Positions 13,701 to 32,361 are shown, numbered from the stretch's first letter. The stretch: DNA of 52,734 nt from a virus (IMGVR_UViG_3300030399_000018); one strand, 5' to 3'. The notes: generated by a model from the sequence alone, not told the origin. A program made the numbers and translations.

Positions 13701-13730
13701 ATCTTAACACAATTTAATAAGGCTTGTCAA
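13701..13730 (-). promoter_or_regulatory. Sigma70-like promoter upstream of the SSB gene
   Basis: The minus strand reads TTGACA (13730-13725), an 18-nt spacer, then TAAGAT (13706-13701). It is embedded in the last codons of the polymerase gene. Confidence 0.5.
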
Positions 13731-15725: not shown

Positions 15726-15913
15726 TAATCATAAAATGCAGTCGTAGCTACGTCAAACCGGAAGCCCTTGATACCCTCGTCAATAAACTTCTGGGTGTGG
15801 GCACCGGCCGTCTCCACTGCGTCATCGTAGTTCATGAAGATAGCCACAGGAGTTTGATCTTTTCCATCACAGCTACGTACCACCACAAACGCCACTTCCT
15901 GTTTCTTAGTCAT
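15725..15913 (-). CDS. Hypothetical protein
   Basis: 62-aa ORF with 1-nt and 8-nt overlaps onto its neighbours. Confidence 0.5.
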   Translation of the reverse strand: MTKKQEVAFVVVRSCDGKDQTPVAIFMNYDDAVETAGAHTQKFIDEGIKGFRFDVATTAFYD

Positions 15914-16433
15914 GTTTAGCTATGTCCACAATAAGGTGAATGCGATCACTGTCGCCTTTGTTTTGTACACTGTGCATCAAAGAATTATCAAACCAGAAAG
16001 CTGTGCCACCTAGTTCGTTAAGGACTTCATCACCACACATAAAAATACTATCAGCATCGGTAAGGCATAAATGATATCGGTTATACGCATCCGTGTGGTC
16101 CTTGAGGTCTATATGGGGATAGATAACTTTCCCTGGCTTAAGGCGAGTCAACACCATGCGACCCAATACAGCGTCGTCTTCTGTGTACCCCAGATGTTCC
16201 AAGAAGTTATATACAAAATCTCCCAGCTTTTCAAGTTCCCCTGACGCTGGATAGCATCCTTTGTTATCTTCTTCATCAATATCAAAGATCAGCAGAATAT
16301 CATCAGCTTCTTTGTGAAAAGAATTACCTTTGGTTCGAATATCATTCTGGTTCCACAAATGTTCCTTGTCAGCTAGTTCCTCAAGAAGAGGTCCAGCGTC
16401 GAAGTCAAACTCCAACAACTTAAAGTTTTTCAC
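15906..16433 (-). CDS. Aspartyl/asparaginyl beta-hydroxylase-like 2OG-Fe(II) cupin oxygenase
   Basis: YPHIDLKDH...NRYHLCL...WFDNSLMHSVQNKGDSDRIHLIVD matches the Asp_Arg_Hydrox pattern (H.D ... R.H.PL ... FD.S..H...N....R..L..D). Confidence 0.75.
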   Translation of the reverse strand: MKNFKLLEFDFDAGPLLEELADKEHLWNQNDIRTKGNSFHKEADDILLIFDIDEEDNKGCYPASGELEKLGDFVYNFLEHLGYTEDDAVLGRMVLTRLKPGKVIYPHIDLKDHTDAYNRYHLCLTDADSIFMCGDEVLNELGGTAFWFDNSLMHSVQNKGDSDRIHLIVDIAKHD

Positions 16434-18515: not shown

Positions 18516-18838
18516 TATGGATTAGCATCCGGTATAACTGCCCGTCGTCCTTTGTCCCGCTCAAGGGCAAGTTGGCAGTGGTTGGTTTGAAACCAGCTAA
18601 GGAGCTTACACATCACACATCCCCACTCCTCACCGGCTAGCTGAGCCTTCGCAGAACGGCTTGAGATGGTCTCGTTGGGATCCCCGAAGGTCAGGGCATT
18701 ACCCAACTGGTCCAACGTCACCAGGACGTTCTTAAGCCAGCTATCACCTTGAACTGCTTGGTACTTCCCCAGGATAGCCAAGGGCATTCGGAGGAACGAG
18801 ACAGTGCAATTCTCCAGATATAGTTCTAGTTTGTTCAT
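18515..18838 (-). CDS. Hypothetical Cys-containing protein coupled to the protease gene
   Basis: 107-aa ORF with a 4-nt overlap onto the protease gene. It has DQLGNALTFGDPNETISSR and HC motifs but I did not recognise a family. Confidence 0.55.
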   Translation of the reverse strand: MNKLELYLENCTVSFLRMPLAILGKYQAVQGDSWLKNVLVTLDQLGNALTFGDPNETISSRSAKAQLAGEEWGCVMCKLLSWFQTNHCQLALERDKGRRAVIPDANP

Positions 18839-19509
18839 TTAATCAGTTCCAAAGACTTAGCTGGAGTCAAGAAGTTCAGGCCAAACGGGACGTCACTGCC
18901 CCGATCAGCTTTGAGTGCCAGTTCCGCGACACCAACGACACAACTATGTACGTCGTCAACAGCAGGACCACCGCTGTTTCCTGGAAGCATGACACCATCA
19001 TACTGAACAAAAGTAGCAAACTTACCAAGATCGTCCGTGAGGTCTCGACTCGGGTTGCTGACAGTGCCGAACGAAATAGTTTTACTTTGTGCAAGTGGTC
19101 CGCCCATTAAGTGTACTCGTTCCCCATAATATGCGGGGTCTTTACAAACAGGAAAACCTTTCGGCCAATTGATAGTCCCGTCTGTGGTCTTCAGCGTCAT
19201 CAGATCAGGACCAGTGGCAAAGTTCTCCCCGTCCCCTTTCTTTTCGATAACAAAGTCGTGCGGCTTGCCGTCCCCGAAGTCCACTACATAAGGGCTTGCT
19301 GGCACTGCCTGTCCCTCCTGACAGTGGGCTGCTGTAACTACCGTGTGGGTTCCAGCCAGTACCCAACCACTACAGTGGCCCAAGTCCATCGTAACCGACA
19401 CAACACTGTCTAGTTGTTTCTGGAGAGGCGGAAAGTAATGCACGTTAACTGCACATCCGGCCAGCAGAATAGCTAGGCCCACCATTGCACCTCGAATGAA
19501 ATTATTCAC
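18835..19509 (-). CDS. Secreted/lipoprotein trypsin-like (S1 family) serine protease
   Basis: It has a signal peptide with a lipobox (LAILLAGC), the His motif VTAAHC, and the Ser motif GNSGGP. Confidence 0.85.
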   Translation of the reverse strand: MNNFIRGAMVGLAILLAGCAVNVHYFPPLQKQLDSVVSVTMDLGHCSGWVLAGTHTVVTAAHCQEGQAVPASPYVVDFGDGKPHDFVIEKKGDGENFATGPDLMTLKTTDGTINWPKGFPVCKDPAYYGERVHLMGGPLAQSKTISFGTVSNPSRDLTDDLGKFATFVQYDGVMLPGNSGGPAVDDVHSCVVGVAELALKADRGSDVPFGLNFLTPAKSLELIK

Positions 19510-21175: not shown

Positions 21176-21613
21176 TTAAGGGAGACGGACGTTAAGATTG
21201 TTGGCCATGTTCCCCACTGGGGCCTGCCTGGGCACCTCTGCTGCTTGCTCCTCAAAATCATACCAATCAACAAACTTCGGCTTTGTCACAGCTTTCCTCT
21301 TTACCTCAACCGCCTTGACTCCCTCCGGCAACACAGTGAAGATAACATCATCTTCCACCAGTCGATCCGGGAAGTTGCGGGCCTTGTCGTTAAAGAACGT
21401 GATACGTCCCGTAAGCGGACTCTTAAGACTCTCCAGCCCATCATTGGTCTCGATCACCATCATCGGTCCCCCTTTCTTAAGATTGATGGCGTCTGCCTGA
21501 AGGATGTGGAAACACTCTTGCATCTTCTCTTCCAGATACGTCTGACGAAGCCCAATGCTTACCACACCAGCCTTGTCAGTCTCTTGCCATATGTTGCCAC
21601 TAAACGTTTTCAT
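21176..21613 (-). CDS. Glycine-cleavage H-protein-like (lipoyl/biotinyl-type hybrid-barrel) protein lacking the lipoyl lysine
   Basis: A gapless 57-residue alignment to E. coli GcvH [57 protein letters not shown] conserves G, E, F, L, G, V, E, P, G, I, N and D. The E-S-V-K lysine aligns to E-T-N-D. Confidence 0.7.
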   Translation of the reverse strand: MKTFSGNIWQETDKAGVVSIGLRQTYLEEKMQECFHILQADAINLKKGGPMMVIETNDGLESLKSPLTGRITFFNDKARNFPDRLVEDDVIFTVLPEGVKAVEVKRKAVTKPKFVDWYDFEEQAAEVPRQAPVGNMANNLNVRLP

Positions 21614-21783
21614 CAACTTCTCCGGAACCCTTCGGTGATTTGTGCTTTAAACTGTTTAATATTTTCTTGCGATCCATACTCTTTTAGGCCCGCTGCTATA
21701 AGACTGAGAAGTAATCTGTGGTCTTCGAATGTTTCCACCTTAATGACGTAAGGTTGGAATCTGCTTTCCATCTGTACTTTCAT
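21613..21783 (-). CDS. Small hypothetical protein (56 aa) between the ATP-grasp and GcvH-like genes
   Basis: Hand translation gives MKVQMESRFQPYVIKVETFEDHRLLLSLIAAGLKEYGSQENIKQFKAQITEGFRRS. It has an ATGA overlap upstream and a TGATG overlap downstream. Confidence 0.35.
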   Translation of the reverse strand: MKVQMESRFQPYVIKVETFEDHRLLLSLIAAGLKEYGSQENIKQFKAQITEGFRRS

Positions 21784-22631
21784 TTACGTAGTTCCTTAAC
21801 AAAAGCCTCGGCGTATTTTTCTACAGTTGTACCTTCCAGGCCGGGGGCCGTGTTTACTTCTAGCACGAAGCACTGGTTGGCTTTCTCGTTCCATATAACA
21901 TCCACGGCTCCGAAGTCGAGTCCAAGTGCCCGAACTGTTGCGATAGCCATTCCTCGCATTTCCTCCGGCTCTTGAATGTCTTCACGACAATACACCCATC
22001 CTGTGTGATGGTTACGAACTTGGTAGTTCGTTTCGAAGTTGTCTGCAAGGTCTTTCCTCTTACGCTTCTCTTGGACATCAATCACTTCTCCAAAGGCAAC
22101 GTGGATTCGGAACTCTTTTTGTTTCTTGATGTACTTAACATACAACGGAGCCGCTGGTAAACTTGCTTCTTTGCCATTAGCAAGTACAATGCCGTCCCCA
22201 GAATGGCCAGTGAGCTTAGTACGACAAACAACAGCAACTCCGGAAGCAAGCCACTCACGGGCTGTGGGTCCACTAGTCGTGAACTCGGGGATACGTATTC
22301 CATCAACCTTCTCCAACTCTTGAAAAGTCCTAAGCTTATTACTTGCAAGGGACACTTGTTTATGATTGTTAACCCACTTAGAGATAGGAACTCCCCCCAC
22401 ATCCACAGGGGGCCCGCTGTTGCCCCAGTTCAAAAGAATCTTATTACCGGGAGTCAGGTTACGCTGACGATTGGGGCGATCAATGTACAGTCTGGGCACC
22501 CGGCACGACAATAACTGACCCATTCTTTCCGACAGGTTCCGCGCCGACTGACTCCCTATTTTGTACGGAAGGAGAAAGATGGGCGATGCGTTCCTGACTG
22601 GCCCGTTGGTTTTCAATGGCTTTCTTTGCAT
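21780..22631 (-). CDS. RimK/R2K-like ATP-grasp amide ligase (start at 22631 or 22736)
   Basis: ILLNWGNSG, VVCRTKLTGHSGDGIVL, EFRIHVAFGEVIDVQEKR and GLDFGAVDVIWNEKANQCFVLEVNTAPGLEG are typical ATP-grasp strands. The N-terminal PIFLLPYKIGSQSARNLSERMG looks like the pre-ATP-grasp domain, which forces an overlap with the upstream gene. Confidence 0.8.
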   Translation of the reverse strand: MQRKPLKTNGPVRNASPIFLLPYKIGSQSARNLSERMGQLLSCRVPRLYIDRPNRQRNLTPGNKILLNWGNSGPPVDVGGVPISKWVNNHKQVSLASNKLRTFQELEKVDGIRIPEFTTSGPTAREWLASGVAVVCRTKLTGHSGDGIVLANGKEASLPAAPLYVKYIKKQKEFRIHVAFGEVIDVQEKRKRKDLADNFETNYQVRNHHTGWVYCREDIQEPEEMRGMAIATVRALGLDFGAVDVIWNEKANQCFVLEVNTAPGLEGTTVEKYAEAFVKELRK

Positions 22632-24201
22632 TGTTGTAGCGCGCTTTGTAGCCTTCACCGAATTCTCCTTGTACCTTATCTGACACACAATCAGCACACA
22701 AAATGGTGGGCGTGTTCTTTGGTTCACCAGAACCAATGATGGACTTCATGGTGACTCGCGTAAACACACGCTCCCACTCTTCAACTTCACGGCCACACTT
22801 ATCACAGTGACAGTTGGCTTGGACATGCTCCCACAGCGGTTTGGGAATCCCCCCATCCGTGGCGTGGACCGGCACGTACTCCACGCGACGTACTTTGTGC
22901 ACGAAGATTGATCGACCACCAACAGTAACAGTCACAAACATTACATCCGCTTGAAGATTCTCACTGATCCACAGATGCAGAGAGGCATTGGTTACAGCTT
23001 GAGGCAGGAATCCGGTGATGTCTGCCATAGACTTGTCGGGTTGCATCACCTTACCAGCAAACCGATACCGCCCCGTGGGAGTTTGAGTCGTCTCCCAAAT
23101 CTTAATCAACAGCGGCTCGCCACGGACGAACTCAGGATCAGAGATCTTGATGTGACCTTGGGCAGCTTCTGCCTTTTCTTCCTCACTAGAGTTCGCTGGC
23201 TGGGGTGTACGGCCATCCGTCCCCGACGCGGTTAAGAGAGCGACGGGCCGGGTGGTTGAGTTCTCTTGTTGTTTCGATTTTGTCCTGTTCGCTAAGCCCG
23301 CTATGGACTTCAGACTTGCCTGACACACGCCTCCCGACTCGATCACACAATCTTTCGAAGGAGTCGTCAGGGCTTGTTGGAGACTCTTGATTTCCGGGGG
23401 GGTCTCCCTTTCCCCCGTTCTGAAAAAAGAGTGGGGTTCCCCATACCCTTCCCACTCGTCTCGTGCGTTGCCAACGAAAACACCCTGATTTTTATACACT
23501 TTCTCCGGCTTGAGTTCCACTTGCGTGATCTTGATGTTACCCAGGAAGTCAAACTCGTACAACTTACCTGGCTCAATGTCTTGAATGTCATCTATCTTGA
23601 TATTGCTGCGGCTTGTGGGCATTGCTGCGATCCACGGCTCACTGGACACCATGTAGGCATCGTCGGTGTACAGCAGACTCAACGGACGTTCCTTGTTGCG
23701 AACAGCATACAGCCGCTCCGTCTCGGTATTGTACCACACCAAAGCGAAAGCCCCATCAATGGTAGGGATGACGTTCTCCGGGGTATCCACAGCCAGCGCG
23801 TGAGCAATGGCGTGGGAGTCCACCTCAACCTTCTCCGTGGTTAGCTTGGTGTGATTCATCAAGGTGCCGTTGTGGACCAAGATGATGTGATTCTCCACAA
23901 ACGGGTGGGCGTTCTCACTGCTGGCTTCCCCAATGGTCTTGGCACGGTTGTGGCCGATAACAAACCGACCCCGATTGATAGCGTCGCTCTTAAACTTGGT
24001 CCATGCGTCCGTGCGGAATAGGTTGAACGGATTGGTTCCGATCTTGACAACTCGGGCCTCTTTGTTACGGAAGCCGGTCATTGCACCAGTGGCATCCTTA
24101 CCTCGTATGGTGTTGATAACAAGCATTTGTTCGAACAATTCAAGATGCTTGTGGGACAAGCCCATTCCTTTTCGCGCGATAATGCCACAAATACCACACA
24201 T
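22480..24201 (-). CDS. Class-II (Ntn) glutamine amidotransferase domain fused to a ~330-aa uncharacterised C-terminal region with a zinc-ribbon-like motif
   Basis: MCGICGI (N-terminal nucleophile Cys), GHNRAKTIG and ILVHNGTL are present. The C-terminal region has no recognisable family and contains CHCDKCG...ILCADC. Confidence 0.85.
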   Translation of the reverse strand: MCGICGIIARKGMGLSHKHLELFEQMLVINTIRGKDATGAMTGFRNKEARVVKIGTNPFNLFRTDAWTKFKSDAINRGRFVIGHNRAKTIGEASSENAHPFVENHIILVHNGTLMNHTKLTTEKVEVDSHAIAHALAVDTPENVIPTIDGAFALVWYNTETERLYAVRNKERPLSLLYTDDAYMVSSEPWIAAMPTSRSNIKIDDIQDIEPGKLYEFDFLGNIKITQVELKPEKVYKNQGVFVGNARDEWEGYGEPHSFFRTGERETPPEIKSLQQALTTPSKDCVIESGGVCQASLKSIAGLANRTKSKQQENSTTRPVALLTASGTDGRTPQPANSSEEEKAEAAQGHIKISDPEFVRGEPLLIKIWETTQTPTGRYRFAGKVMQPDKSMADITGFLPQAVTNASLHLWISENLQADVMFVTVTVGGRSIFVHKVRRVEYVPVHATDGGIPKPLWEHVQANCHCDKCGREVEEWERVFTRVTMKSIIGSGEPKNTPTILCADCVSDKVQGEFGEGYKARYNNAKKAIENQRASQERIAHLSPSVQNRESVGAEPVGKNGSVIVVPGAQTVH

Positions 24202-24204
24202 GTC

Positions 24205-25107
24205 TTAGCCCCTTGTCTTAACAAAATAAGCTGAATCGGCCAGCCGCTCTGGGATCAGAGCATTTAAGGTAGCTGGTTTAGCAAAAGCAGATCGAACGTT
24301 TCCAACGGCGTGTTTCACATCTTCCCACGATTCAAACTTCAGGTATTGGGAATCTTGACCAAAGATCTGGCTAATCAAGATGGACATATCCGTTGACTTG
24401 GACAGCCCCAACACCGTCTTGCGGATCGTGCCAGTTTCCGTGGCCTTACAAAACTCCACCAACTTGGTGAGCAAGCGTACCCAGATAGTGACCTTGTGGT
24501 GGTCGAACGTTCCATGCATCTGGCGGAACTCCAGCGTGCCCTTGTCCCGCAACGGCAGGATGTTCAGGCCCGTGTATTTGGACCACTTCTCCGTCGACAT
24601 TGCCAAATCCTCCGTCGCCATGAACGTCAACAGATTGGTGTCGAACAGAGGCACACAGTAGATGTTCTTGGCACGACCACGGCCCGTAAACTTGTACAAC
24701 AACGGTTCGATGCACGCATACATCAGAATGATGTCGACAACTTTCTCTGTCGCCAGATCCTGCATGTTCAAATGCACGTGAATCGAAGTGCGGGGGCTGA
24801 AGCACGAGTCTTTCTTCAAGGTGTCCTGCAACAATTCCTGCAAGATGTGAGGTGCATACTTCGCTGGCATTGGCTGGCTGATAAACTCAACCCCACCGTT
24901 GCGAAGAGATCCGTCTGCTGTTGGAATCCACGCCCCTGAATTAGGTGTTGAAGTATCTTGAGCGTTCTCCACCTCTACCTCAATGCCCACCAACACCTCA
25001 CTTTCTATAGGATCGCCGGGAACAGGGAACGTGTCAAACGTCTTTTTCCAGGCCGGGTAGATCTTTACCGGCTTCATCCCAAAATACTCTACGATGGTTT
25101 TTCCCAT
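24205..25107 (-). CDS. Amidoligase_2-family (GCS/glutamine synthetase-like COOH-NH2 ligase) enzyme
   Basis: VGIEVEVEN, ADGSLRNGGVEFISQPM and TSIHVHLNM match the 'putative amidoligase enzyme' pattern. I chose the ATG at 25107 (MGKTIVEY, SD GAGG); the longer ORF would overlap the upstream gene. Confidence 0.8.
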   Translation of the reverse strand: MGKTIVEYFGMKPVKIYPAWKKTFDTFPVPGDPIESEVLVGIEVEVENAQDTSTPNSGAWIPTADGSLRNGGVEFISQPMPAKYAPHILQELLQDTLKKDSCFSPRTSIHVHLNMQDLATEKVVDIILMYACIEPLLYKFTGRGRAKNIYCVPLFDTNLLTFMATEDLAMSTEKWSKYTGLNILPLRDKGTLEFRQMHGTFDHHKVTIWVRLLTKLVEFCKATETGTIRKTVLGLSKSTDMSILISQIFGQDSQYLKFESWEDVKHAVGNVRSAFAKPATLNALIPERLADSAYFVKTRG

Positions 25108-25114
25108 GATAACC

Positions 25115-25735
25115 TCAGGCTCTGTTAAAGATTTTCGTGAGTTGATCCATGTATGCAGCCTCGTAAATATTGGTAACTCGGCCAGCAGAGGATACCCGAG
25201 CCACAGGCAACTGCCAATGGAAAAGCACGTGGTCAGGAGCTTTAAACATGGAAAGAGCCAAGCTGTAATTATTGTCCAGTGCCACACTTCTCACCTTCCC
25301 CGTTTCCAATACAGCCAAAGCCTCCTTCACAGTGTAGATCTTGTGGTCAAATGCCGCTTCGATGGCCTTGATGTCCCAACCCACGTGTTGACCACAAATC
25401 CGTCGGGTGGTGTTCTCCAGCACGGAGTTATCCGAACAAATCCCACGGCGGTACTGACGAGTGGGCTTGCGGCGGAACACTACAGCATCTTTCTTGAATT
25501 GAAAGACACCTACCGGAGGATACTTGAACTTGATGCTGTGTCCCTCCGATCCCATGTTAATGGTAATGGCACCATACTCCGCCGAATCCAGATGAAGTAC
25601 CCCAATCTTGGAGGCACTTTCTTCCACCTCCCGGATCTTCACTAGACACTCTTTGTCCTTCTCCTCCATGTGAAGCCACACGAAGGTTCCCTCCCACCGA
25701 CGGCGGAAGTCCTGAATAACTTCGGAATTATTCAT
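25115..25735 (-). CDS. Hypothetical protein inside the ligase operon
   Basis: ORF of about 206 aa. The ATG at 25735 is preceded by GGGGA and overlaps the upstream stop (ATGAATAA). I did not recognise a family. Confidence 0.55.
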   Translation of the reverse strand: MNNSEVIQDFRRRWEGTFVWLHMEEKDKECLVKIREVEESASKIGVLHLDSAEYGAITINMGSEGHSIKFKYPPVGVFQFKKDAVVFRRKPTRQYRRGICSDNSVLENTTRRICGQHVGWDIKAIEAAFDHKIYTVKEALAVLETGKVRSVALDNNYSLALSMFKAPDHVLFHWQLPVARVSSAGRVTNIYEAAYMDQLTKIFNRA

Positions 25736-25916
25736 CAGCATCCCCAATATCTATGTGAATCTTCCCATCATCAGACAAATACACCGACAATAGGTATAAG
25801 TTGGCCCTGTCTGAGGTGTCAAATACTACTTCGTGATTGTGGAGATGTTCAACAGCTTTCAGGCTGTCAAAGCCATCTACTTCGCCTAGGCCGTTAAGTA
25901 ATTCTCCTAGAGTCAC
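25728..25916 (-). CDS. Small acidic hypothetical protein (62 aa) inside the ligase operon
   Basis: ORF with a 4-nt overlap upstream and an 8-nt overlap downstream. Confidence 0.45.
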   Translation of the reverse strand: MTLGELLNGLGEVDGFDSLKAVEHLHNHEVVFDTSDRANLYLLSVYLSDDGKIHIDIGDADE

Positions 25917-26689
25917 AGCCCAAACTCCACTTTGAGTTTTGCCAACAACACCTTGTCAGAGTTATTGATGCAGTTCTGAATGTCCGAGGCTTGGCCTTCG
26001 GTGAATTTACCGCCGTTGCGGACAAACTCAAGTGCCTTGTCCGTCTGATCCCACACCCACTGGATTCGATCATCCGACTCAATCCAGGCGTTGGAAGCCG
26101 TGCGGTACTCCACACCGTAGCTCTTCTTACGGAAGGCACCAGCACGCCCGTAAAGCTCTCTGCGGCCCATATCTTCGTCGAAGTCCAGCATCAAACAGCC
26201 CACGAACAGGTCCATTGCTTGAATGACACCAAGCACATCATCACCATCGTTGAGAGCGATGTGGACGTGACCACCACACGAACGGAGATTCTTGTTCGCA
26301 GCGTTGGGACGCGGATTCATGTCCCCATCCATCCAAGCATTGAAGTCAGGCTCACAGCCAAACGTCTGAGCTTCGAATGACTGGAGTTGGTCGTCGTCAA
26401 ACACCGCCGACGGCTTGACCAGCATCTCAAGGCCCAACTCTGCTGCAAGGTCTTTGATCCAGGTCTTGTTCTTGTTGATATGCAAAATGAAGTCAGCAGC
26501 GGACTTGCACGGGGGCGTGTTGAACTCCACTGTTACATTGTCTTCTTGGACCGCATTGCCCTCTTCATCAATCGGGCGTGGGAACTGCTTCGATCCTCCC
26601 ACCAAACCGACGCTGCTGATAAACTTCTGCGCTGCGGGGTCAAACAAGAAGACTTCAGGGTCCGTACCGAGCATCGTGATGTTATTCAT
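25913..26689 (-). CDS. phiEco32-like COOH-NH2 ligase type 2 (GCS-superfamily amidoligase)
   Basis: MLGTDPEVFLFD, QEDNVTVEFNTPP, FGCEPDFNAW, RSCGGHVHIAL, RRELYGRAGAFRKKSYGVEYRTASNAW. The ATG at 26689 overlaps the upstream stop (ATGAATAA). Confidence 0.8.
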   Translation of the reverse strand: MNNITMLGTDPEVFLFDPAAQKFISSVGLVGGSKQFPRPIDEEGNAVQEDNVTVEFNTPPCKSAADFILHINKNKTWIKDLAAELGLEMLVKPSAVFDDDQLQSFEAQTFGCEPDFNAWMDGDMNPRPNAANKNLRSCGGHVHIALNDGDDVLGVIQAMDLFVGCLMLDFDEDMGRRELYGRAGAFRKKSYGVEYRTASNAWIESDDRIQWVWDQTDKALEFVRNGGKFTEGQASDIQNCINNSDKVLLAKLKVEFGL

Positions 26690-27266
26690 GGAATACAACC
26701 TCGCAAAAGTGAATGATATTACCCGTGTTTTGGTTAACAAACAACATCTCTTGGAACTTGGCCTGCCTCTTGGCCCAGTCATACAGATACTCGAAATGCA
26801 TCCGAGGCTCTCTTTCCACCTCCGGCAAGACAACTTCTGTGGCGTCAACGGGGTGGTCGCGATCCCGCCGTGTTTCCACAAAGTTAAACACCCAACGCTG
26901 TGATGAATATCGACGAACGCTCTTCTGCAAAGTGGCCATCATGGCATCTACAAACTCAAACTCTAGGCAGTTGTCGTAACCGAAGCCGTTGATCTGATTC
27001 ATCGCACAACAGTAGTTGTACGGAGACACAGTAAACCAGAGCAGAGCCCGTCCTTCGACCAGCACTTGGATAAGTGTGTCTGGTTCACGTTCGGGAGCAC
27101 ACTGACGAGCAAAATAATCCGACGCCGCCGCCGAGATTGTCAGTCCTTTTACTGTCTGCCTGAGGCATTGGCCAAGTCGTTCCACAACCAGCTTGTTGTC
27201 CTTCAGGAAATCCTCGGCAACAAGGTGTAAGGCTGGGTTTAGATGATCACGTGAGGCTTGATTCAC
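26682..27266 (-). CDS. Uncharacterised protein, paralog A of the CC[GA] / N-x-N-[ST]-G-N family
   Basis: PYNYCCAMNQINGFG ... RWVFNFVETR ... LFVNQNTGNIIHF. The motifs are shared in the same order with 27946-28323 and 30213-30932. Confidence 0.6.
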   Translation of the reverse strand: MNQASRDHLNPALHLVAEDFLKDNKLVVERLGQCLRQTVKGLTISAAASDYFARQCAPEREPDTLIQVLVEGRALLWFTVSPYNYCCAMNQINGFGYDNCLEFEFVDAMMATLQKSVRRYSSQRWVFNFVETRRDRDHPVDATEVVLPEVEREPRMHFEYLYDWAKRQAKFQEMLFVNQNTGNIIHFCEVVFHE

Positions 27267-27949
27267 AGGACATACTCCCGAACAAGTTTCATGCAGTATT
27301 GGACAAAAGGATCACGACGCGGGTTGCTGTGAAACTCCGGATGGCCCTGGATCCCAAGAGCTTTGATCTTCGGATACCAGACAATTTCGGCCTCCTTTTT
27401 GTCTGCCATCTTTAAATCGTTTTCGCTGGCCTCAGTGATGTAGATACTGCTGCGGCGGGGATGTGCCCAGGCAATCAATTCATGTTCAACATCATATGGA
27501 TACTGCATCTGGTGATGTACCGACGATGTGGCCAAGACGTAACCATCCTTGGTCATCATATCATGAGTACGACCATGATTATCCACATGCTGAATGAGAG
27601 AACCGCCAGCCAAGGCGCAAACCAACTGAGCACCACGACATACGCCAATAATGGGAATACCGCGATCAATAGCCGTGCGACAGGCACTCGCTTCGATAAC
27701 GTCCCGACGACTAGGCGAGTTGGGCGCATATGATCCCCCGATGGCGGCCGCTTCATTGTAGTAGCTTGGGGAGATATCCTCACCGCCCCAGATGACCAGA
27801 GCATCAATCTCAGCCCCGTCAGCTATGTCCTGAGACGTAACAAGCATCGAGTGGGGATACACCTGATCGAACGGCTCTAGCGCCCCTGTACCACGTCCTA
27901 CGTGTCCTAACGTTAGTACTTTCGTCTTCTCTGCTACTTCCATTTTCAT
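27263..27949 (-). CDS. Class-I glutamine amidotransferase-like / peptidase C26 (gamma-glutamyl hydrolase, PuuD-like)
   Basis: WGGEDISPSYY, RRDVIE, IPIIGVCRGAQLVCALAGGSLIQH (nucleophile elbow Cys), SSVHHQ and GIQGHPEF (His) are present. Confidence 0.85.
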   Translation of the reverse strand: MKMEVAEKTKVLTLGHVGRGTGALEPFDQVYPHSMLVTSQDIADGAEIDALVIWGGEDISPSYYNEAAAIGGSYAPNSPSRRDVIEASACRTAIDRGIPIIGVCRGAQLVCALAGGSLIQHVDNHGRTHDMMTKDGYVLATSSVHHQMQYPYDVEHELIAWAHPRRSSIYITEASENDLKMADKKEAEIVWYPKIKALGIQGHPEFHSNPRRDPFVQYCMKLVREYVL

Positions 27950-28323
27950 TCCTTTCTTAGGTTAGACAAGAGGATCCACGAATCCACCATGTTTCCGCTG
28001 TTGGGATTTATAAACTCAGCCACATGTAGGGCGTCCTCGTGTTTCGATACATACTTGCGCAGTACCTCATACTCATACTCTTCTGCCAGGGGCAAGGTCA
28101 GCGGGTCTCCTGAAAATTCCCAACCATTTCCAATTCTCTGGCGCACGAAGTTGAATATGATGGGGCGGCCCTCTGCCGCCTCGACCAGCTCCCCGACCAG
28201 CCCTTTGGGTGTCTTCGACACTACGTCGGCATATTCATCTACACCAAAGTCCCCGGCCTCATACACACCACAACAATATGGTAATGTTGAATATCGAGCA
28301 TCCAGCATTTTAGCCCACGACAA
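27946..28323 (-). CDS. Uncharacterised protein, paralog B of the CC[GA] / N-x-N-[ST]-G-N family
   Basis: LPYCCGVYEAGDFG ... RPIIFNFVRQR ... EFINPNSGNMVDSW. Confidence 0.6.
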   Translation of the reverse strand: MSWAKMLDARYSTLPYCCGVYEAGDFGVDEYADVVSKTPKGLVGELVEAAEGRPIIFNFVRQRIGNGWEFSGDPLTLPLAEEYEYEVLRKYVSKHEDALHVAEFINPNSGNMVDSWILLSNLRKE

Positions 28324-28747
28324 GGCGCAGTTCTCCGTCCGCAGTGAATGCCTTTTCGATCAGACTGGGGACGGTTGTTTCATACACGCGCAAGCAGCCA
28401 AACACACCAAATGTGGTGGTGGGCTTCTCTTCCGCACACTGTTGTGCGAATTTGATGGCGGCCTCTTCTGTGGTGAATACCTTGTTTAACTCCTTGGCGT
28501 CTGCGGCCTGGAGATAATACCCATATCCCGCCCCAGGTTCGGCAACCTGGGGTTGTTCCGGAGGAGGAGGATCCGCCAGATTGGCGAAACCTTGGGGGAC
28601 AGGGATTTCGTTGCGGTTCCGAATACGTGGGGCAACGCGTGCCACTTCCGCTTGAGCGGGTTCAAAGTTGATCACCGATTTGTTTGGGTCAGCAGTGACT
28701 GCCAACTTACAAACAAACCAGAATTGTTTAATCTTCTGCTTTGCCAT
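28310..28747 (-). CDS. Hypothetical protein
   Basis: I chose the ATG at 28747 (MAKQKIKQFWF), 1 nt after the upstream stop. It has a central Pro-rich linker. Confidence 0.55.
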   Translation of the reverse strand: MAKQKIKQFWFVCKLAVTADPNKSVINFEPAQAEVARVAPRIRNRNEIPVPQGFANLADPPPPEQPQVAEPGAGYGYYLQAADAKELNKVFTTEEAAIKFAQQCAEEKPTTTFGVFGCLRVYETTVPSLIEKAFTADGELRLVVG

Positions 28748-28748
28748 A

Positions 28749-28988
28749 CTATACCTCACCAGTTGTGAAAGTTATTACGCCTAAGTCTCTGAGGGCCTCT
28801 GCATCTGCCATAGTGCAATCCACGGTGCTCAGAAACAACAGATGGGTTATATCGTCCCCTATGTGTTCCTTCAAAGCTTCCGTAAATTCTACGAAAGACT
28901 TCTGATCGTTGACCACCGTTAGGTATTTACCATTGCAGATCAGACTGATTATTAGCCGGTATCCTGGCCAGTCATATGTGCCTACCAT
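28749..28988 (-). CDS. Hypothetical protein
   Basis: 79-aa ORF with a TAATG overlap onto the upstream gene. Confidence 0.5.
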   Translation of the reverse strand: MVGTYDWPGYRLIISLICNGKYLTVVNDQKSFVEFTEALKEHIGDDITHLLFLSTVDCTMADAEALRDLGVITFTTGEV

Positions 28989-29539
28989 TAGTCCATCCCT
29001 GGCATGTCTTGAGTCTCAAGGATGTCATAAAGAACCCCTTCATCCAAACAGGCATGAATGACAACAAGGTCTTCCATCCAAGCAGCTTCAATTTGTGATT
29101 GGGCGTCTGTGTCATCAAACCACTTGACTGTAAAAGGAGACCACTTGGCCCCTGAATTGGGGCGTGTGTGGGTAAATGTAATCATGCCCCATGTGTGAGG
29201 ATGTTTCCATCGACCTCGTATGTCCCAACGACGACACACAATGGATCCACGACCAAAGCCAGCAATCTCGGCCCGCAAGATGTATTCCTGCACCTCATTG
29301 TAGCTTGGGAAATTCCCCAGAGCATACTCAACGTGCTGAGGCATGTCAACCACGCGAGGAAAGCCACTGCTCTTCAGCCGGACTGGAGAGAAATTCTGGT
29401 CCTCCGCTGAGAAGTGTTTAACTTGTGTTACAGGGGACTTGTTAACTATTTCGTGGACAACCGGGGGATCGAAATACAACTTTCCATCCCCCCCAACAGG
29501 GTTGACAACAGACAAACGTGCTCGACCCATCATTGACAT
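28988..29539 (-). CDS. Hypothetical protein
   Basis: 183-aa ORF in the operon chain; no family recognised. Confidence 0.55.
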   Translation of the reverse strand: MSMMGRARLSVVNPVGGDGKLYFDPPVVHEIVNKSPVTQVKHFSAEDQNFSPVRLKSSGFPRVVDMPQHVEYALGNFPSYNEVQEYILRAEIAGFGRGSIVCRRWDIRGRWKHPHTWGMITFTHTRPNSGAKWSPFTVKWFDDTDAQSQIEAAWMEDLVVIHACLDEGVLYDILETQDMPGMD

Positions 29540-29784
29540 TCCTTGAGCAGACGTTCGCGATATTCTCGATCCAGTGCCTTGCCGTTGACCTGAATCAATT
29601 GGCGATCAGCCGTGCCCGGAGCACCACGACGGATCTTGACGATGCGGAAACGGGACGGGTTGGCGAAACCAAGCCCAGTGAACAGATCGAACAAACCATC
29701 CTGAATCGCCACTACCTTGTCGCCAGTACTAAGGTTATGACTGTGGCGGGCATATTGTCGAAGCATCAGTGCATCTGAAAGCAT
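29530..29784 (-). CDS. Hypothetical protein
   Basis: 84-aa ORF with a 10-nt overlap downstream. Confidence 0.5.
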   Translation of the reverse strand: MLSDALMLRQYARHSHNLSTGDKVVAIQDGLFDLFTGLGFANPSRFRIVKIRRGAPGTADRQLIQVNGKALDREYRERLLKECQ

Positions 29785-29788
29785 AATC

Positions 29789-30220
29789 TTATACCTCGAA
29801 AGAAACGATTTTGTACTGGGCAGCTTTTGGGGCTCGCATGGGGACGGTGTGACTGCGTTCTAGCTTTGCCTGCAAAAAGCGCTCTGCGTCGCCACGTGCT
29901 GACCATCCCGCCTTGTTATCGTTCATATAACCACTGATCCGGTTATATTTCAGATTCCAGATGATCCACCGAACCTCGGGAGTCACATCGACGAATATAC
30001 CACTACAGCACAGCACCTCGCCCCGTGAATCAGCAAAATCCACCATAAAGGCAGCACCGAAGTCCCCCCGATCAATTGGGCGGTAATTCACCGACACAAG
30101 CCTCGCCGGAAAATACTGTGTTGAAGTGGTCAGGATATTACGACGGAAAGCCTTCAATTTACCTTCTTGAATCTTGGGCAAGTCACTGGGCTCAACTGGG
30201 CGATAGACTCGATCAGACAT
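29789..30220 (-). CDS. Hypothetical protein (contains an LCCSGIF motif)
   Basis: 143-aa ORF with an 8-nt overlap onto the upstream gene. Confidence 0.55.
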   Translation of the reverse strand: MSDRVYRPVEPSDLPKIQEGKLKAFRRNILTTSTQYFPARLVSVNYRPIDRGDFGAAFMVDFADSRGEVLCCSGIFVDVTPEVRWIIWNLKYNRISGYMNDNKAGWSARGDAERFLQAKLERSHTVPMRAPKAAQYKIVSFEV

Positions 30221-30932
30221 TTTTAATGTCTCCTGGTAGTTTAAATCCTTCCAAAGGATAAATGGCCTGTTGAGCTAGTTGCCCAAAAGGTTGCACTGCT
30301 TGGTCGAGCGCGTATTGTTGCACCCATCCCGGCCACTGACCGTCGTTGACAACCAATCCCTGTTCATTTGTGGGCCAGATTACCTTGGCTCTCTGACTCA
30401 CTTCCGGTACGGGAACATTCTCTTTCTCCTTGTTCTCAAAGAACCACAAGGGGTCGGCTTCCCATTCTGGATAGGTGTATCCCAGTGGTTTCGCCACAGG
30501 ATACCGTTTAACGTACTTATCCAGCTTGTCTAAGTGCAAGGCCGGTTCCCACACCATCATATACAGCTTAGATGGTCCATGTACCCGATTGGGGCGCGAA
30601 TCGATAACCTCAGCCCCAAGTTCCTGAAGCAATCCGGAGATGTGAAGCAGATCCGCTTTATACAGGTTGGGGTCTGTGATGATGTAGTAATAGCTCACAT
30701 TAAGGGAGTAGTGGCGAACGAAAAAAGCCAGAAAAGACTGAACTTCCTTTATGTTTACGAAAGTCCCCCTAATGCTTGACATACACCCAGCACCACAACA
30801 TTTAAAAGCCTTTTCACCATAGCTCCCTTGTTCAACCACAAGGATGTGTCTCGGGTAACTTCCCCCGATCCGGCTAGTCTGTACATAAATCCCAGACTGT
30901 TCAAATCCTAAGGCCTCTTCAGGACAAAGCAT
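30213..30932 (-). CDS. Uncharacterised protein, paralog C of the CC[GA] family with a C-terminal extension
   Basis: I chose the ATG at 30932 (MLCPEE). Motifs: AFKCCGAGCMSSIRGTF ... YYYIITDP ... IDSRPNRVHGPSKLYMMVW. The longer ORF-track version overlaps 30919-31110. Confidence 0.6.
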   Translation of the reverse strand: MLCPEEALGFEQSGIYVQTSRIGGSYPRHILVVEQGSYGEKAFKCCGAGCMSSIRGTFVNIKEVQSFLAFFVRHYSLNVSYYYIITDPNLYKADLLHISGLLQELGAEVIDSRPNRVHGPSKLYMMVWEPALHLDKLDKYVKRYPVAKPLGYTYPEWEADPLWFFENKEKENVPVPEVSQRAKVIWPTNEQGLVVNDGQWPGWVQQYALDQAVQPFGQLAQQAIYPLEGFKLPGDIKNV

Positions 30933-31471: not shown

Positions 31472-32071
31472 TTATGAGTTTCCTTGTTTCTTAAACTCTG
31501 CTTCAACTACTTTGAGGAAATACTCGGCTTGGAGTTGTTTCAGGTGGGGTTTCGTAGTCTCCGCCGCCGCCCACGCCGCCGCCGCCGCCGCCGCCTCCGC
31601 CTCCGCCGCCGCCCTCGCCGCCCACGCCGCCGCCCACCCCGCCGCCCTTGCCGGCCACGCCGAGCCCGCCGCCGCCTCCGCCGCCGCCGCCTCCGCCGCC
31701 GGGGCTTTTGACTTGTCCCCGGTAATCAGAAAGTCCCGAACAATGCCTGGGGGTGTCCAGAGATCCATAACATCGACTGCAAACTGTCGAGCAGATGATT
31801 GCAATAAATCCGTAGCGTCTATGGTGGCGATGATTTTGCGCTGTTTCGCAACAACCTTATTGGTGTGTTTTTCTTCAATGCCAATCAATTCAACCTTATG
31901 CAAAATGTTGCCTGGGGCAAACTGTAGGGCATCAAAGGGGTGATCTGATGCATGGAGCCCCCGATAACAAATCTTTGGGGTTCCTGGAAACACCAACCAC
32001 TCCCCAATTGGAGGAATAGGCGTTCCGTCACGGAGCCTGTCATTTGTAAAGTGATAATAAATTTTACTCAT
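31472..32071 (-). CDS. Hypothetical protein with an N-terminal GLHAS-motif domain and a C-terminal Ala/Trp repeat tract
   Basis: The ATG at 32071 (MSKIYYHFTNDRLRDG) forms an ATGA overlap with the upstream gene. Motifs: CYRGLHASDHPFDAL, then AAEAAAAEAAAGSAWPARAAGWAAAWAARAAAEAEAAAAAAAWAAAE. Confidence 0.6.
   Translation of the reverse strand: MSKIYYHFTNDRLRDGTPIPPIGEWLVFPGTPKICYRGLHASDHPFDALQFAPGNILHKVELIGIEEKHTNKVVAKQRKIIATIDATDLLQSSARQFAVDVMDLWTPPGIVRDFLITGDKSKAPAAEAAAAEAAAGSAWPARAAGWAAAWAARAAAEAEAAAAAAAWAAAETTKPHLKQLQAEYFLKVVEAEFKKQGNS
31561..31702 (-). repeat. Imperfect (GCG)n / (CGC)n trinucleotide tract encoding the Ala/Trp repeat
   Basis: About 142 nt are almost entirely G and C (ccgccgccgcccacgccgccgccgccgccgccgcctccgcc...). 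All frames on both strands are open across it. Confidence 0.9.
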
Positions 32072-32361
32072 TTTCCTTCTCCAGTTTCCAACATCCAGTC
32101 GATCCAAGCAAGGCGAGCATGTTTGGCTTCTTTGGAAGTGAGATGAGTCTTGCGAACGGCAAGATTCCACTGTTCAAGAGAGCGATAGCCCACGAGCCGA
32201 TCCATTATATAATTCCGTAAGCGCAGATGGGCGATATATGCTTTGCACACTCTCTGTTCATGCAAAACTGTGGCGAGCAGAGCGATGCAAATATATTTTT
32301 GGGAACCTGCGGCTATTCGGATCCTGGCCCCTTTCAACAACTCTCGTTCAAGTTTGTTCAC
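32068..32361 (-). CDS. Hypothetical protein
   Basis: 97-aa ORF with 4-nt overlaps at both ends. Confidence 0.55.
   Translation of the reverse strand: MNKLERELLKGARIRIAAGSQKYICIALLATVLHEQRVCKAYIAHLRLRNYIMDRLVGYRSLEQWNLAVRKTHLTSKEAKHARLAWIDWMLETGEGK

What the first reader, a model, noticed from the sequence alone, without database searches (positions are those of the whole stretch)
26682..30932. Three paralogous unknown proteins (CC[GA] ... [FY]xF/I ... N-x-N-[ST]-G-N) are interleaved with the ligase genes
Seen: three ORFs share the same ordered motifs.
- 26682-27266: PYNYCCAMNQINGFG ... RWVFNFVETR ... FVNQNTGNIIHF
- 27946-28323: LPYCCGVYEAGDFG ... RPIIFNFVRQR ... FINPNSGNMVDSW
- 30213-30932, more weakly: AFKCCGAGCMSSIRGTF ... 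YYYIITDP ... RPNRVHGPSKLYMMVW

Two of them directly flank the class-I GATase gene. A fourth ORF (29789-30220) has LCCSGIF, but its spacing differs, so I do not count it.

Inference: triplication of an uncharacterised domain with an invariant Cys-Cys pair next to amide-bond enzymes suggests a few roles. They could be thiol-dependent enzymes, thioester carriers, or alternative substrates or specificity subunits.
Basis: seen in the sequence. Interest (0 to 1): 0.7.

Follow-up and report, generated by a model that had tools for sequence, protein, structure and literature searches.

The report
Paired Cys-Cys proteins flanking a phage amidotransferase
Two of the three flagged genes are true paralogues of an undescribed phage protein family with an invariant Cys-Cys pair. 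The family always sits around a glutamine-amidotransferase-like gene inside a widespread phage amide-ligase cluster of unknown function, but the third gene cannot be shown to belong.

Summary

**ORF A and ORF B are real paralogues.**
- ORF A is 26682-27266; ORF B is 27946-28323.
- BLASTP gives E=3e-7, and the profile hits are reciprocal.
- They represent the long and short forms of a family with 173 cluster representatives in metagenomes.
- The family has no Pfam, PHROG, NCBIfam or PDB sequence match.
- The Cys-Cys pair is invariant in 101 of 101 aligned members.

**Genomic context is constant.**
- Ten independent loci all carry the family next to a Peptidase_C26/class-I GATase, COOH-NH2_lig and Amidoligase_2.
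- The usual order is B-GATase-A-ligase, with overlapping start and stop codons.

**Fold.** A confident AlphaFold model of B (pLDDT 90) has only weak matches. The best are GNAT acetyltransferases (TM about 0.48) and LUZ24 gp12, which also has a Cys-Cys motif. There is no CoA-binding motif.

**ORF C (30213-30932)** heads a separate conserved family in the same neighbourhood. Its match to A/B is collinear but rests on the CCG tripeptide: P=0.002, falling to background when CCG is masked. ORF D's CC is not conserved.

**Verdict.** This is a duplication, not a proven triplication. The likeliest role, which is inference only, is a pair of thiol-dependent transferase or partner subunits working with the C26 amidotransferase.

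The parts
27946..28323 (-). ORF B, the short form (about 120-125 aa) of the Cys-Cys domain family. Motifs are LPYCCGVYEAGDF, RPIIFNFVRQR and FINPNSGNMVDSW. The start may be the ATG at 28308 rather than the TTG at 28323.
   Evidence: AlphaFold model pLDDT 90.3. C17, C18, G19 and N106 are invariant in 50/50 members.
27263..27949 (-). Class-I glutamine amidotransferase / Peptidase_C26-like thiol enzyme, with GVCRGAQ and GHPE motifs. Its start overlaps the stop of B (ATGA) and its stop overlaps the start of A (GTGA).
   Evidence: PF07722 at 1e-18, PF00117 at 7e-11; phrog_7218; junctions.
26682..27266 (-). ORF A, the long form (194 aa) of the Cys-Cys domain family. It has a variable N-terminal extension of about 75 aa plus the domain. 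Motifs are YNYCCAMNQINGF, QRWVFNFVETR and FVNQNTGNIIHF.
   Evidence: C86, C87, F95, R124, N178 and N180 are invariant in 51/51. H186 is in 50/51 and E131 in 46/51.
25913..26689 (-). phiEco32-type COOH-NH2 ligase (GCS2/GS-like carboxylate-amine ligase). Its ATG overlaps the end of ORF A by 8 nt.
   Evidence: PF14395; phrog_3815 at 6e-69; homologues in 308 GenBank phages.
25115..25747 (-). Conserved protein of about 206 aa and unknown function, always found between the COOH-NH2 ligase and Amidoligase_2.
   Evidence: phrog_11055. A 206-209 aa gene is in the same slot.
24205..25107 (-). Amidoligase_2 (glutamine-synthetase-like amidoligase). The start was inferred from homologue length.
   Evidence: PF12224 at 1.9e-10; phrog_7469 at 1e-38.
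22480..24201 (-). Class-II (Ntn) glutamine amidotransferase, beginning MCGICG.
   Evidence: (PF13522, PF13537).
21780..22631 (-). RimK-like ATP-grasp ligase. The start is uncertain.
   Evidence: PF08443 at 6.5e-6.
30213..30932 (-). ORF C, a member of a separate conserved family with core motifs xCCGA, YYYIIT and PN-x-(N/V)-HGP. It is a possible but unproven distant relative of A/B.
29789..30220 (-). ORF D, a conserved neighbour of unknown function. Its CC is not conserved, and it is not a family member.

Best explanation
SHOWN.
- ORF A and ORF B are diverged paralogues (about 25% identity) of a previously undescribed, apparently phage-restricted protein family.
- The family is built on an alpha/beta domain of about 115 residues.
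- Its ordered motifs are [YFL]-P-x-C-C-[GA]-x2-[EQ]-x-[GN]-x-F, then R-x3-F-N-F-V, then N-x-N-[ST]-G-N-x-I-[DH].
- There are two subfamilies. The short form (B) is the bare domain. The long form (A) adds a variable N-terminal extension.
- The two forms are normally encoded as B - Peptidase_C26/class-I GATase - A - COOH-NH2 ligase, with overlapping start and stop codons.
- This arrangement sits at the head of a phiEco32-type amidoligase cluster: COOH-NH2_lig, Amidoligase_2, class-II GATase and RimK-like ATP-grasp.

INFERRED.
- The domain has a GNAT-like topology but no acyl-CoA-binding loop.
- A and B act together with the C26-type thiol amidotransferase / gamma-glutamyl hydrolase as dedicated subunits of one step of the cluster's amide-bond pathway.
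- The most likely chemistry is thiol-dependent acyl transfer (gamma-glutamyl or aminoacyl). One cysteine of the invariant pair would take the acyl group as a thioester and pass it to an amine.
- The long form keeps a Cys-Cys + His186 + Glu131 set typical of thiol acyl-enzymes.
- The short form replaces that His/Glu pair with an Asp/Lys-type pair. It is more likely a non-catalytic or differently specialised partner.

ORF C is not demonstrably part of this family.
For: Paralogy and family:
- Paralogy is supported.
- The family has 173 representatives at E<=1e-3 and two size classes.
- CC is invariant in 50/50 and 51/51 members, and other motif columns are conserved.
- No Pfam, PHROG, NCBIfam or PDB sequence match was found for the window proteins or for 50 and 51 family members.

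Context:
- The window plus L001, L003, L012, L014, L015, L017, L018, L020, L023 and Alcaligenes phage L004 all carry Peptidase_C26, COOH-NH2_lig and Amidoligase_2.
- The order B-GATase-A-ligase holds in 7 loci, with overlapping or near-abutting genes.
- At least two paralogues are present per locus in 9 of 10 loci. Variants are tandem B-B (L015), B-B-A (L017) and A-A (L004).

Fold:
- The AlphaFold model has pLDDT 90.3 and pTM 0.82.
- The only full-length PDB matches are GNAT acetyltransferases: 3g8w_B (probability 0.89, TM 0.48) and 1xeb_F (TM 0.47).
- Viral matches include several N-acetyltransferases and LUZ24 gp12 (probability 0.95). LUZ24 gp12 itself has FPSCCTA.
- A gp12 homologue was deposited as 'N-acetyltransferase'.

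Catalytic-type residues:
- Two columns covary between subfamilies: E131/H186 in the long form against K,R61/D,E,H114 in the short form.
- In the model these columns lie at the end of strand 55-61 and within strand 112-118. Whether those two strands neighbour each other in three dimensions was not checked.

The GATase keeps its nucleophile elbow (GVCRGAQ) and GHPE.
Against: - The GNAT similarity is weak. Foldseek gives E=0.2 and TM below 0.5, and no sequence-level signal exists.
- The GNAT acyl-CoA motif is absent.
- I had no model coordinates, so I could not check that the Cys pair, His and Glu lie together in space.
- No domain fusion to the GATase or a ligase was seen among 150 listed hits.
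- One cluster has a Peptidase_C26 gene but no CC protein (Rhizobium phage).
- In another cluster the single CC gene lies 3.4 kb from the GATase (L018).
- Two adjacent cysteines plus His/Glu is also a plausible metal site.
- No experiment exists for any gene of this cluster type in the papers I could search.
Confidence: 0.4

Rival explanations
1. A and B are non-catalytic scaffold or specificity subunits of a heteromeric amidotransferase. The analogy is small subunit - glutaminase - synthetase operons such as purS-purQ-purL or gatC-gatA-gatB. In this reading they dock the C26/class-I glutaminase onto the COOH-NH2 ligase, so that ammonia or a gamma-glutamyl group is channelled.
For: - The four genes B-GATase-A-ligase have overlapping stop and start codons.
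- The same order recurs in 7 independent loci.
- The proteins are small and always come in at least two paralogous copies in 9 of 10 loci.
Against: - Pure scaffolds rarely keep an invariant Cys-Cys plus invariant Asn, Arg and His in loops.
- There is no sequence similarity to PurS or GatC: no Pfam hits at E<=0.1.
- The Peptidase_C26 profile fits the enzyme better than the classical GATase profile does. That hints at hydrolysis rather than ammonia channelling.
Confidence: 0.22
2. The Cys-Cys pair, with His/Glu in the long form or Asp/Glu in the short form, binds a metal or an Fe-S cluster, possibly bridged across an A-B heterodimer. The proteins would then be small metallo-enzymes or redox partners rather than thiol acyl-enzymes.
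For: - The conserved set C, C, H186, E131 (long form) and C, C, E22, D/E/H114 (short form) are classic metal ligands.
- Two paralogues with two Cys each would give four thiolates.
Against: - Adjacent cysteines seldom chelate the same ion.
- There is no CxxC or other Fe-S spacing.
- There are no further conserved Cys.
- No redox enzymes are conserved in the cluster.
Confidence: 0.13
3. A and B are protein substrates or covalent carriers on which the cluster's ligases build or park an amide- or thioester-linked group. The analogy is LysW-type carrier proteins used by RimK-family ATP-grasp ligases, or Pup-like Glu/Gln tags.
For: - The cluster contains a RimK-like ATP-grasp and GS-like ligases.
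- One motif column is Glu in the short form (46/50) and Gln in the long form (41/51). This is reminiscent of Glu/Gln switching in tag systems.
Against: - There is no conserved C-terminal acidic tail, and C-termini are variable.
- The conserved residues sit in a folded core rather than on a flexible arm.
- A GcvH-like lipoyl-carrier domain gene next to the ATP-grasp is a more obvious carrier candidate.
Confidence: 0.12
4. The three-way resemblance is chance. Only a shared CC dipeptide links unrelated ORFs.
For: - CC dipeptides occur about 8 times in this proteome.
- ORF D's CC is not conserved.
- ORF C's score falls to background once CCG is masked.
Against: For A versus B this is excluded:
- E=3e-7 over the whole domain.
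- Reciprocal profile hits.
- Shared family-wide motifs.
Confidence: 0.03

Closest known systems
GNAT (Gcn5-related N-acetyltransferase) fold, e.g. PDB 3g8w and 1xeb
   Same: - These are the only full-length structural matches to the confident model of ORF B (probability 0.89, TM 0.48 and 0.47).
- Several viral N-acetyltransferase models appear among the weak hits.
- The element order beta-beta-beta-alpha-beta-alpha-beta-beta fits the GNAT core from strand 2 onward. This mapping is my reading.
   Different: - The Foldseek E-value is not significant (0.2).
- There is no Pfam acetyltransferase hit.
- There is no conserved Q/R-x-x-G-x-G/A acyl-CoA loop before the first helix.
- The short form lacks the N-terminal GNAT arm.
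- An invariant Cys-Cys pair is not a GNAT feature.
Pseudomonas phage LUZ24 gp12 / phrog_8299 (unknown function)
   Same: - It is a structural match to the B model (probability 0.95, TM 0.46).
- It has an F-P-S-C-C-T motif near the start of the conserved domain in 7 of 7 homologues.
- It is encoded upstream of the same kind of amidoligase cluster.
- One homologue was deposited as N-acetyltransferase.
   Different: - Sequence profiles barely connect: hhalign P=0.003 to the long form and 0.11 to the short form.
- It has no N-x-N-x-G-N motif.
- It is not adjacent to a class-I GATase.
phiEco32 gp87/gp88 and their counterparts in GAP52, LAh_8 and LUZ24 (gp14/gp15)
   Same: - They are a pair of paralogous unknown proteins (hhalign probability 92%).
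- They sit in the slot just upstream of the COOH-NH2 ligase.
- Each has a Cys-[Phe/Tyr]-Gly motif near the N-terminus.
   Different: - They are 270-400 residues long.
- There is no detectable sequence relation to the A/B family: hhalign probability 1.9% or lower, against either paralogue's profile.
- They have a single Cys.
- There is no class-I GATase between them.
phiEco32-type phage amidoligase system (Iyer et al. 2009, as cited in PMC10580990 and PMC11318856)
   Same: - COOH-NH2_lig, Amidoligase_2, class-II GATase and RimK-like ATP-grasp are present in the same order.
- The cluster lies in the early/middle region ahead of the replication genes.
   Different: - This lineage adds a Peptidase_C26/class-I GATase bracketed by the two CC proteins.
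- No gamma-glutamyl cyclotransferase gene was found among the window ORFs scanned.
- The system's function is only predicted. Later papers cite it as cell-wall modification.
Small subunits of heteromeric amidotransferases (PurS, GatC)
   Same: The gene-order analogy is small protein - glutaminase - larger partner, with translational coupling. The comparison rests on my own knowledge of purSQL and gatCAB operons.
   Different: There is no sequence similarity, and those subunits have no conserved cysteines.

Membership tests
Cys-Cys domain family defined here (A/B type) | Significant sequence or profile similarity across the whole domain of about 115 residues | tested here: met
   A and B meet it: BLASTP 3e-7, and profile E-values from 1e-57 to 5e-5. 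ORF C does not: no hit at E<1 with any family HMM, and hhalign probability is at most 13.5%.
Cys-Cys domain family defined here (A/B type) | Invariant C-C-[G/A] after the first strand, and N-x-N-[S/T]-G-N in the last hairpin | tested here: met
   A and B meet it. ORF C has CCG and a looser P-N-x-(N/V)-H-G-P with different spacing. One C-family member has NCG.
Cys-Cys domain family defined here (A/B type) | Encoded beside a Peptidase_C26/class-I GATase within a COOH-NH2_lig + Amidoligase_2 cluster | tested here: met
   10 of 10 loci. ORF C lies 1.9 kb upstream in the same transcription direction.
Cys-Cys domain family: membership of ORF C by fold | Predicted structure superposes on the ORF B model | not tested
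   Both structure-prediction jobs went on ORF B. No model of C was made.
GNAT acetyltransferase superfamily | GNAT alpha/beta fold | tested here: inconclusive
   The best PDB hits are GNATs, but with E=0.2 and TM 0.47-0.48. Viral N-acetyltransferase hits have TM 0.39-0.42.
GNAT acetyltransferase superfamily | Acyl-CoA pyrophosphate-binding loop Q/R-x-x-G-x-G/A between strand 4 and helix 3 | tested here: not met
   There is no conserved Gly-rich motif in the columns before the first helix, in 50 short-form or 51 long-form sequences.
GNAT acetyltransferase superfamily | Match to a Pfam acetyltransferase profile | tested here: not met
   0 Pfam families for A, B and all 50 short-form members. No PDB sequence hit.
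phiEco32-type amidoligase gene cluster | COOH-NH2_lig (PF14395) + Amidoligase_2 (PF12224) + class-II GATase + ATP-grasp in one co-directional block | tested here: met
   The order is the same as in phiEco32.
phiEco32-type amidoligase gene cluster | Associated AIG2/gamma-glutamyl cyclotransferase gene | tested here: not met
   None was found among 30 window ORFs scanned against Pfam. It is present in phiEco32, LUZ24, LAh_8 and L018. The smallest ORFs were not scanned.
Class-I glutamine amidotransferase / Peptidase_C26 (the flanked gene) | Profile match plus the nucleophile elbow G-x-C-x-G and the H-P-E pair | tested here: met
   PF07722 at 1e-18 and PF00117 at 7e-11. GVCRGAQ and GHPEF are in the translation.
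Carrier or small-subunit families (PurS, GatC, LysW-type, PP-binding) | Profile match, or a conserved attachment site such as an acidic C-terminal tail or a Ser for phosphopantetheine | tested here: not met
   No Pfam or NCBIfam hit at E<=0.1. C-termini are variable.

The most novel reading that the evidence does not exclude
The A/B proteins, the ORF C family and LUZ24 gp12/phrog_8299 would be branches of one new superfamily of CoA-independent, GNAT-derived Cys-Cys proteins. These would be the missing core components of the widespread phage amidoligase clusters. They would hold pathway intermediates as protein thioesters, so that a gamma-glutamyl or peptide product is assembled on a protein template inside the infected cell. 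That would be a phage-specific, carrier-templated route to amide bonds.
Probability: 0.15. Interest if true: 0.8.

Novelty: new variant of a known kind. Interest (0 to 1): 0.55.

Why it matters
**An old open question.** The phiEco32/LUZ24-type amidoligase cluster occurs in hundreds of sequenced phages. The COOH-NH2 ligase alone has homologues in 308 GenBank records. The cluster has had only a computational prediction of function since 2009.

**What this finding adds.**
- It defines a clean, unannotated family: two subfamilies, an invariant Cys-Cys pair and a confident model.
- The family is locked to one enzyme of that cluster.
- The pairing theme recurs in other lineages. phiEco32-type clusters carry a different pair of paralogues in the same slot, and LUZ24 gp12 is a likely structural relative.

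**Concrete handles for experiments.**
- Specific residues can be mutated.
- A predicted B-GATase-A(-ligase) complex can be tested.
- Cultured phages carry relatives: Alcaligenes vB_Af_QDWS535 and LUZ24.

If the cysteines carry acyl intermediates, this would be a new kind of amide-bond machinery. If they do not, the family is still a useful marker and a needed annotation.

Tried and rejected
**No matches or no annotation**
- Megablast of the 9.5-kb cluster, and tblastn of A, B and two other family members, against GenBank phages gave no match.
- Pfam, PHROG and NCBIfam scans of A, B, C, D and of 50 and 51 family members gave nothing.
- Profile searches of PDB sequences gave nothing meaningful.

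**Structure**
- The first structure model, from an 8-sequence alignment, was too poor to use (pLDDT 64). Its fold search was discarded.

**Wider searches for family members**
- IMG/VR scans for relatives of A/B and of C found none.
- A motif scan of 185,579 species-representative genomes for CCAMxQxNxF gave 31 chance matches and no true member.
- The family therefore looks phage- and metagenome-restricted, within the limits of an exact-pattern scan.
- One rep-search hit, P0119 (960 aa, repetitive EAGDF protein), was rejected as a false positive.

**Relationships tested and not supported**
- phiEco32-type upstream pair versus the CC family: no relation.
- ORF D as a member: rejected.
- ORF C as a member: enlarged its family to 9 sequences, then ran hhalign with shuffle and masking controls. 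The result is suggestive but rests on CCG.

**Literature**
- I found no experimental work on the cluster or on LUZ24 gp12.
- The key 2009 paper (PMC3268129) is not held.

Full report
**What the window is.**
- The window is a podovirus-like phage genome of about 52.7 kb. The same genome has been assembled at about 52.8 kb in 11 samples.
- It has terminase, portal, major head and internal-virion genes on the plus strand. A long minus-strand early/middle block ends in DnaB helicase, a split family-A DNA polymerase and an exonuclease.
- It has no close relative among 50,697 GenBank phage records.
- The finding lies in the minus-strand block. The relevant genes, in transcription order, are listed below.
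  - ORF C at 30213-30932, then ORF D at 29789-30220, then four small unknown genes.
  - ORF B at 27946-28323.
  - A Peptidase_C26/class-I GATase at 27263-27949.
  - ORF A at 26682-27266.
  - COOH-NH2_lig at 25913-26689.
  - A conserved 206-aa unknown protein, then Amidoligase_2, then a class-II GATase.
  - A RimK-like ATP-grasp, then a weak GcvH-like gene.

**Checking the observation.**
- Every quoted string is present at the stated place.
- ORF A and ORF B are significantly similar. BLASTP gives 26/106 identities and E=3e-7, running from the CC motif to the NxNxGN motif.
- The similarity is reciprocal at profile level. The long-form profile hits B at 1.7e-7, and the short-form profile hits A at 5e-5.
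- ORF C is not significantly similar to either: E=0.54 and 0.26.
- ORF D is not similar either. Its CC is replaced by SS, GS or DS in homologues.

**The A/B family.**
- Word-indexed searches found only 3-4 close homologues of each protein.
- A profile of those eight, scored against 1.84 billion cluster representatives, found 173 proteins at E<=1e-3. One listed hit was a repetitive false positive.
- The hits fall into two size classes. The short form, like B, is 110-145 aa. The long form, like A, is 180-260 aa with the domain at the C-terminus.
- In 50 short-form sequences, C17, C18, G19 and N106 are invariant. E22, G24, F59 and N111 are above 90%.
- In 51 long-form sequences, C86, C87, F95, R124, N178 and N180 are invariant. 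Y83, N128, E131, W164 and H186 are at or above 90%.
- Two subfamily-specific switches stand out.
  - Glu22/Gly24 in the short form correspond to Gln91/Asn93 in the long form.
  - Lys,Arg61 + Asp,Glu,His114 in the short form correspond to Glu131 + His186 in the long form.
- In the model, the second pair of columns lies at the end of strand 55-61 and within strand 112-118. The covariation would fit direct contact, but I had no coordinates to check that the two strands neighbour each other.
- No member matches any Pfam, PHROG or NCBIfam profile or any PDB sequence.

**Context.**
- I looked up or fetched nine further independent loci that carry family members, including the weakest hits of the profile search (E about 1e-4).
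- All carry Peptidase_C26/GATase, COOH-NH2_lig and Amidoligase_2.
- The order B-GATase-A-ligase holds in the window and in L001, L003, L012, L014, L017 and L020.
- Variants are two tandem short forms before the GATase (L015), two short forms plus a long form (L017), and one short form 3.4 kb upstream (L018).
- In the window, B's stop overlaps the GATase start (ATGA). The GATase stop overlaps A's start (GTGA). A's end overlaps the ligase ATG by 8 nt.
- Among GenBank phages, the COOH-NH2 ligase has homologues in 308 records.
- The CC family was detectable only in the closest of these, Alcaligenes phage vB_Af_QDWS535. It has two long-form-like copies between its GATase-like gene and the ligase, and one copy is unannotated.
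- A motif scan of species-representative bacterial and archaeal genomes found no true member.

**Fold.**
- With the 50-sequence alignment, AlphaFold gave a confident model of B: pLDDT 90.3 and pTM 0.82.
- The element order is beta(7-13), beta(21-24), beta(34-36), alpha(39-50), beta(55-61), alpha(86-93), beta(98-105), beta(112-118).
- The Cys pair lies in the loop between the first two strands. FNFV forms the central strand. N-P-N-S-G-N is the last hairpin.
- No PDB match is significant. The only full-length ones are GNAT acetyltransferases: 3g8w_B (probability 0.89, TM 0.48) and 1xeb_F (TM 0.47).
- Against predicted viral structures, the best hits are uncharacterised phage proteins (E down to 3e-4). 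Several N-acetyltransferases and LUZ24 protein A9J6V5 (probability 0.95) also appear.
- A9J6V5 matches LUZ24 gp12 in length (219 aa). gp12 lies upstream of LUZ24's own amidoligase cluster.
- gp12 carries F-P-S-C-C-T at the start of its conserved domain, in 7 of 7 homologues.
- It belongs to phrog_8299, of unknown function. One homologue was deposited as 'N-acetyltransferase'.
- The GNAT acyl-CoA loop is absent from the family alignments.
- I therefore describe the fold as GNAT-like, not as a GNAT.

**ORF C.**
- Its family has 3 close homologues.
- Iterative searches of the fetched loci, plus one metagenome scan, enlarged it to 9 diverse members.
- They share a core of about 110 residues: x-C-C-G-A, a helix, Y-Y-x-I, a helix ending L-G-A, then P-N-x-(N/V)-H-G-P and a final hydrophobic strand.
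- This order of elements is the same as in A/B, and one member reads P-N-L-N-T-H-G-N.
- hhalign of the short-form profile against this core gives a collinear 103-column alignment, but only 13.5% probability (P=0.002).
- The score of 23.8 beats all 120 column shuffles, which average 10.6 +/- 2.0 with a maximum of 17.7.
- Masking the five columns around CCG drops the score to 13.7, against a null of 10.6 +/- 2.2.
- ORF C may well be a distant relative, and I would put that near even odds. The evidence in hand amounts to a shared tripeptide plus a plausible register.

**How it most likely works.**
- The following points are shown.
  - There are two paralogues.
  - They are locked around a C26-type thiol amidotransferase / gamma-glutamyl hydrolase at the head of a four-ligase cluster.
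  - The loop residues are invariant polar or thiol residues.
  - The GATase has an intact nucleophile elbow and His-Pro-Glu.
- The following points are inferred.
  - The pair works with the GATase, and probably with the adjacent ligase, on one step of the pathway.
  - The long form's Cys-Cys/His/Glu set suggests a thiol acyl-enzyme.
  - The short form, which lacks that His/Glu pair, would be its partner.
- The rivals are not mutually exclusive: a pure scaffold role (PurS/GatC analogy), a metal or cluster site, or a protein substrate or carrier.
- The pathway's product is unknown. Later papers cite the 2009 prediction of cell-wall modification to block superinfection (PMC10580990, PMC11318856). 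I found no experiment.

**Comparison with what is known, and verdict.**
- By sequence the family belongs to nothing described. By fold it is at best a CoA-loop-less, Cys-Cys variant of the GNAT scaffold. By context it is an add-on module to the phiEco32-type amidoligase system.
- phiEco32-, GAP52-, LAh_8- and LUZ24-type clusters carry a different pair of paralogues in the same slot (hhalign 92% between the two). Each has an N-terminal Cys-Phe/Tyr-Gly motif, and neither is related to A/B by sequence.
- The recurrence of a paralogous pair of Cys-motif proteins ahead of the ligases may be the more general rule.
- The finding is real and useful, but it is a duplication rather than a demonstrated triplication, and its mechanism remains inference. 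Interest is 0.55.

Noticed in passing
L005 6809-8990 (phiEco32 gp88, gp87); L007 7146-8974; L008 6999-8988; L009 7243-9008; L006 5433-7507: In phiEco32-, GAP52-, pSal-, LAh_8- and LUZ24-type clusters, the slot just upstream of the COOH-NH2 ligase holds a pair of 270-400 aa unknown proteins. They are paralogues of each other (hhalign 92%, E=5e-7). Each has a Cys-[Phe/Tyr]-Gly motif about 20-30 residues from the N-terminus. This parallels the A/B pair here, although the sequences are unrelated to it.
   Followed up: partly
L057 4164-4823 (LUZ24 gp12), L006 3939-4349, L058-L062: LUZ24 gp12 / phrog_8299 has a conserved F-P-S-C-C-T motif and structurally matches the ORF B model (probability 0.95). 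It lies upstream of the LUZ24 amidoligase cluster. A homologue in phage Pae-1 was deposited as 'N-acetyltransferase'.
   Followed up: partly
L004 8394-8972 (Alcaligenes phage vB_Af_QDWS535, OK172329.1, about 40055-40633): There is an unannotated ORF of about 190 aa between gene 44 and the COOH-NH2 ligase. It is a second Cys-Cys family member (profile E=5.6e-8; PACCAF ... FNHNSGRE).
   Followed up: yes
window 21176-21616 (-); L001 13642-14085: A weak GcvH-like (lipoyl-carrier) domain gene lies directly downstream of the RimK-like ATP-grasp. Pfam E=0.003 in the window, and a precomputed PF01597 hit exists in L001. It is a candidate swinging-arm carrier for the pathway.
   Followed up: no
window 15906-16433 (-): An Asp/Asn beta-hydroxylase-type 2OG-Fe(II) dioxygenase (PF05118, 1e-13) is encoded next to the helicase gene. 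It is a peptide-modifying enzyme that could belong to the same chemistry.
   Followed up: no
window 18835-19509 (-); L001 16266-16979; L014 18672-19304: A trypsin-like serine protease gene is conserved a few genes downstream of the amidoligase cluster in this phage lineage.
   Followed up: no
window 31472-32170 (-): A DUF7666 protein carries an Ala/Trp/Glu-rich low-complexity C-terminal tail (AAEAAAAEAAAGSAWPARAAGWAAAWAARAAAEAEAAAAAAAWAAAE).
   Followed up: no
L001 1633-1938: A related phage contig encodes a 101-aa protein with a ribosomal L7/L12 C-terminal domain hit (PF00542), upstream of the cluster.
   Followed up: no
L018 13824-15131: In one distant cluster the Peptidase_C26 enzyme is 435 aa, with an extra N-terminal region of about 230 aa of unknown nature. 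The single CC-family gene there lies 3.4 kb upstream instead of adjacent.
   Followed up: partly
window 13714-14436 and 14586-15725 (-): The family-A DNA polymerase is split into two ORFs, exonuclease plus N-terminal part and C-terminal part, as reported for LUZ24-group phages and phiEco32 (PMC3517423).
   Followed up: no
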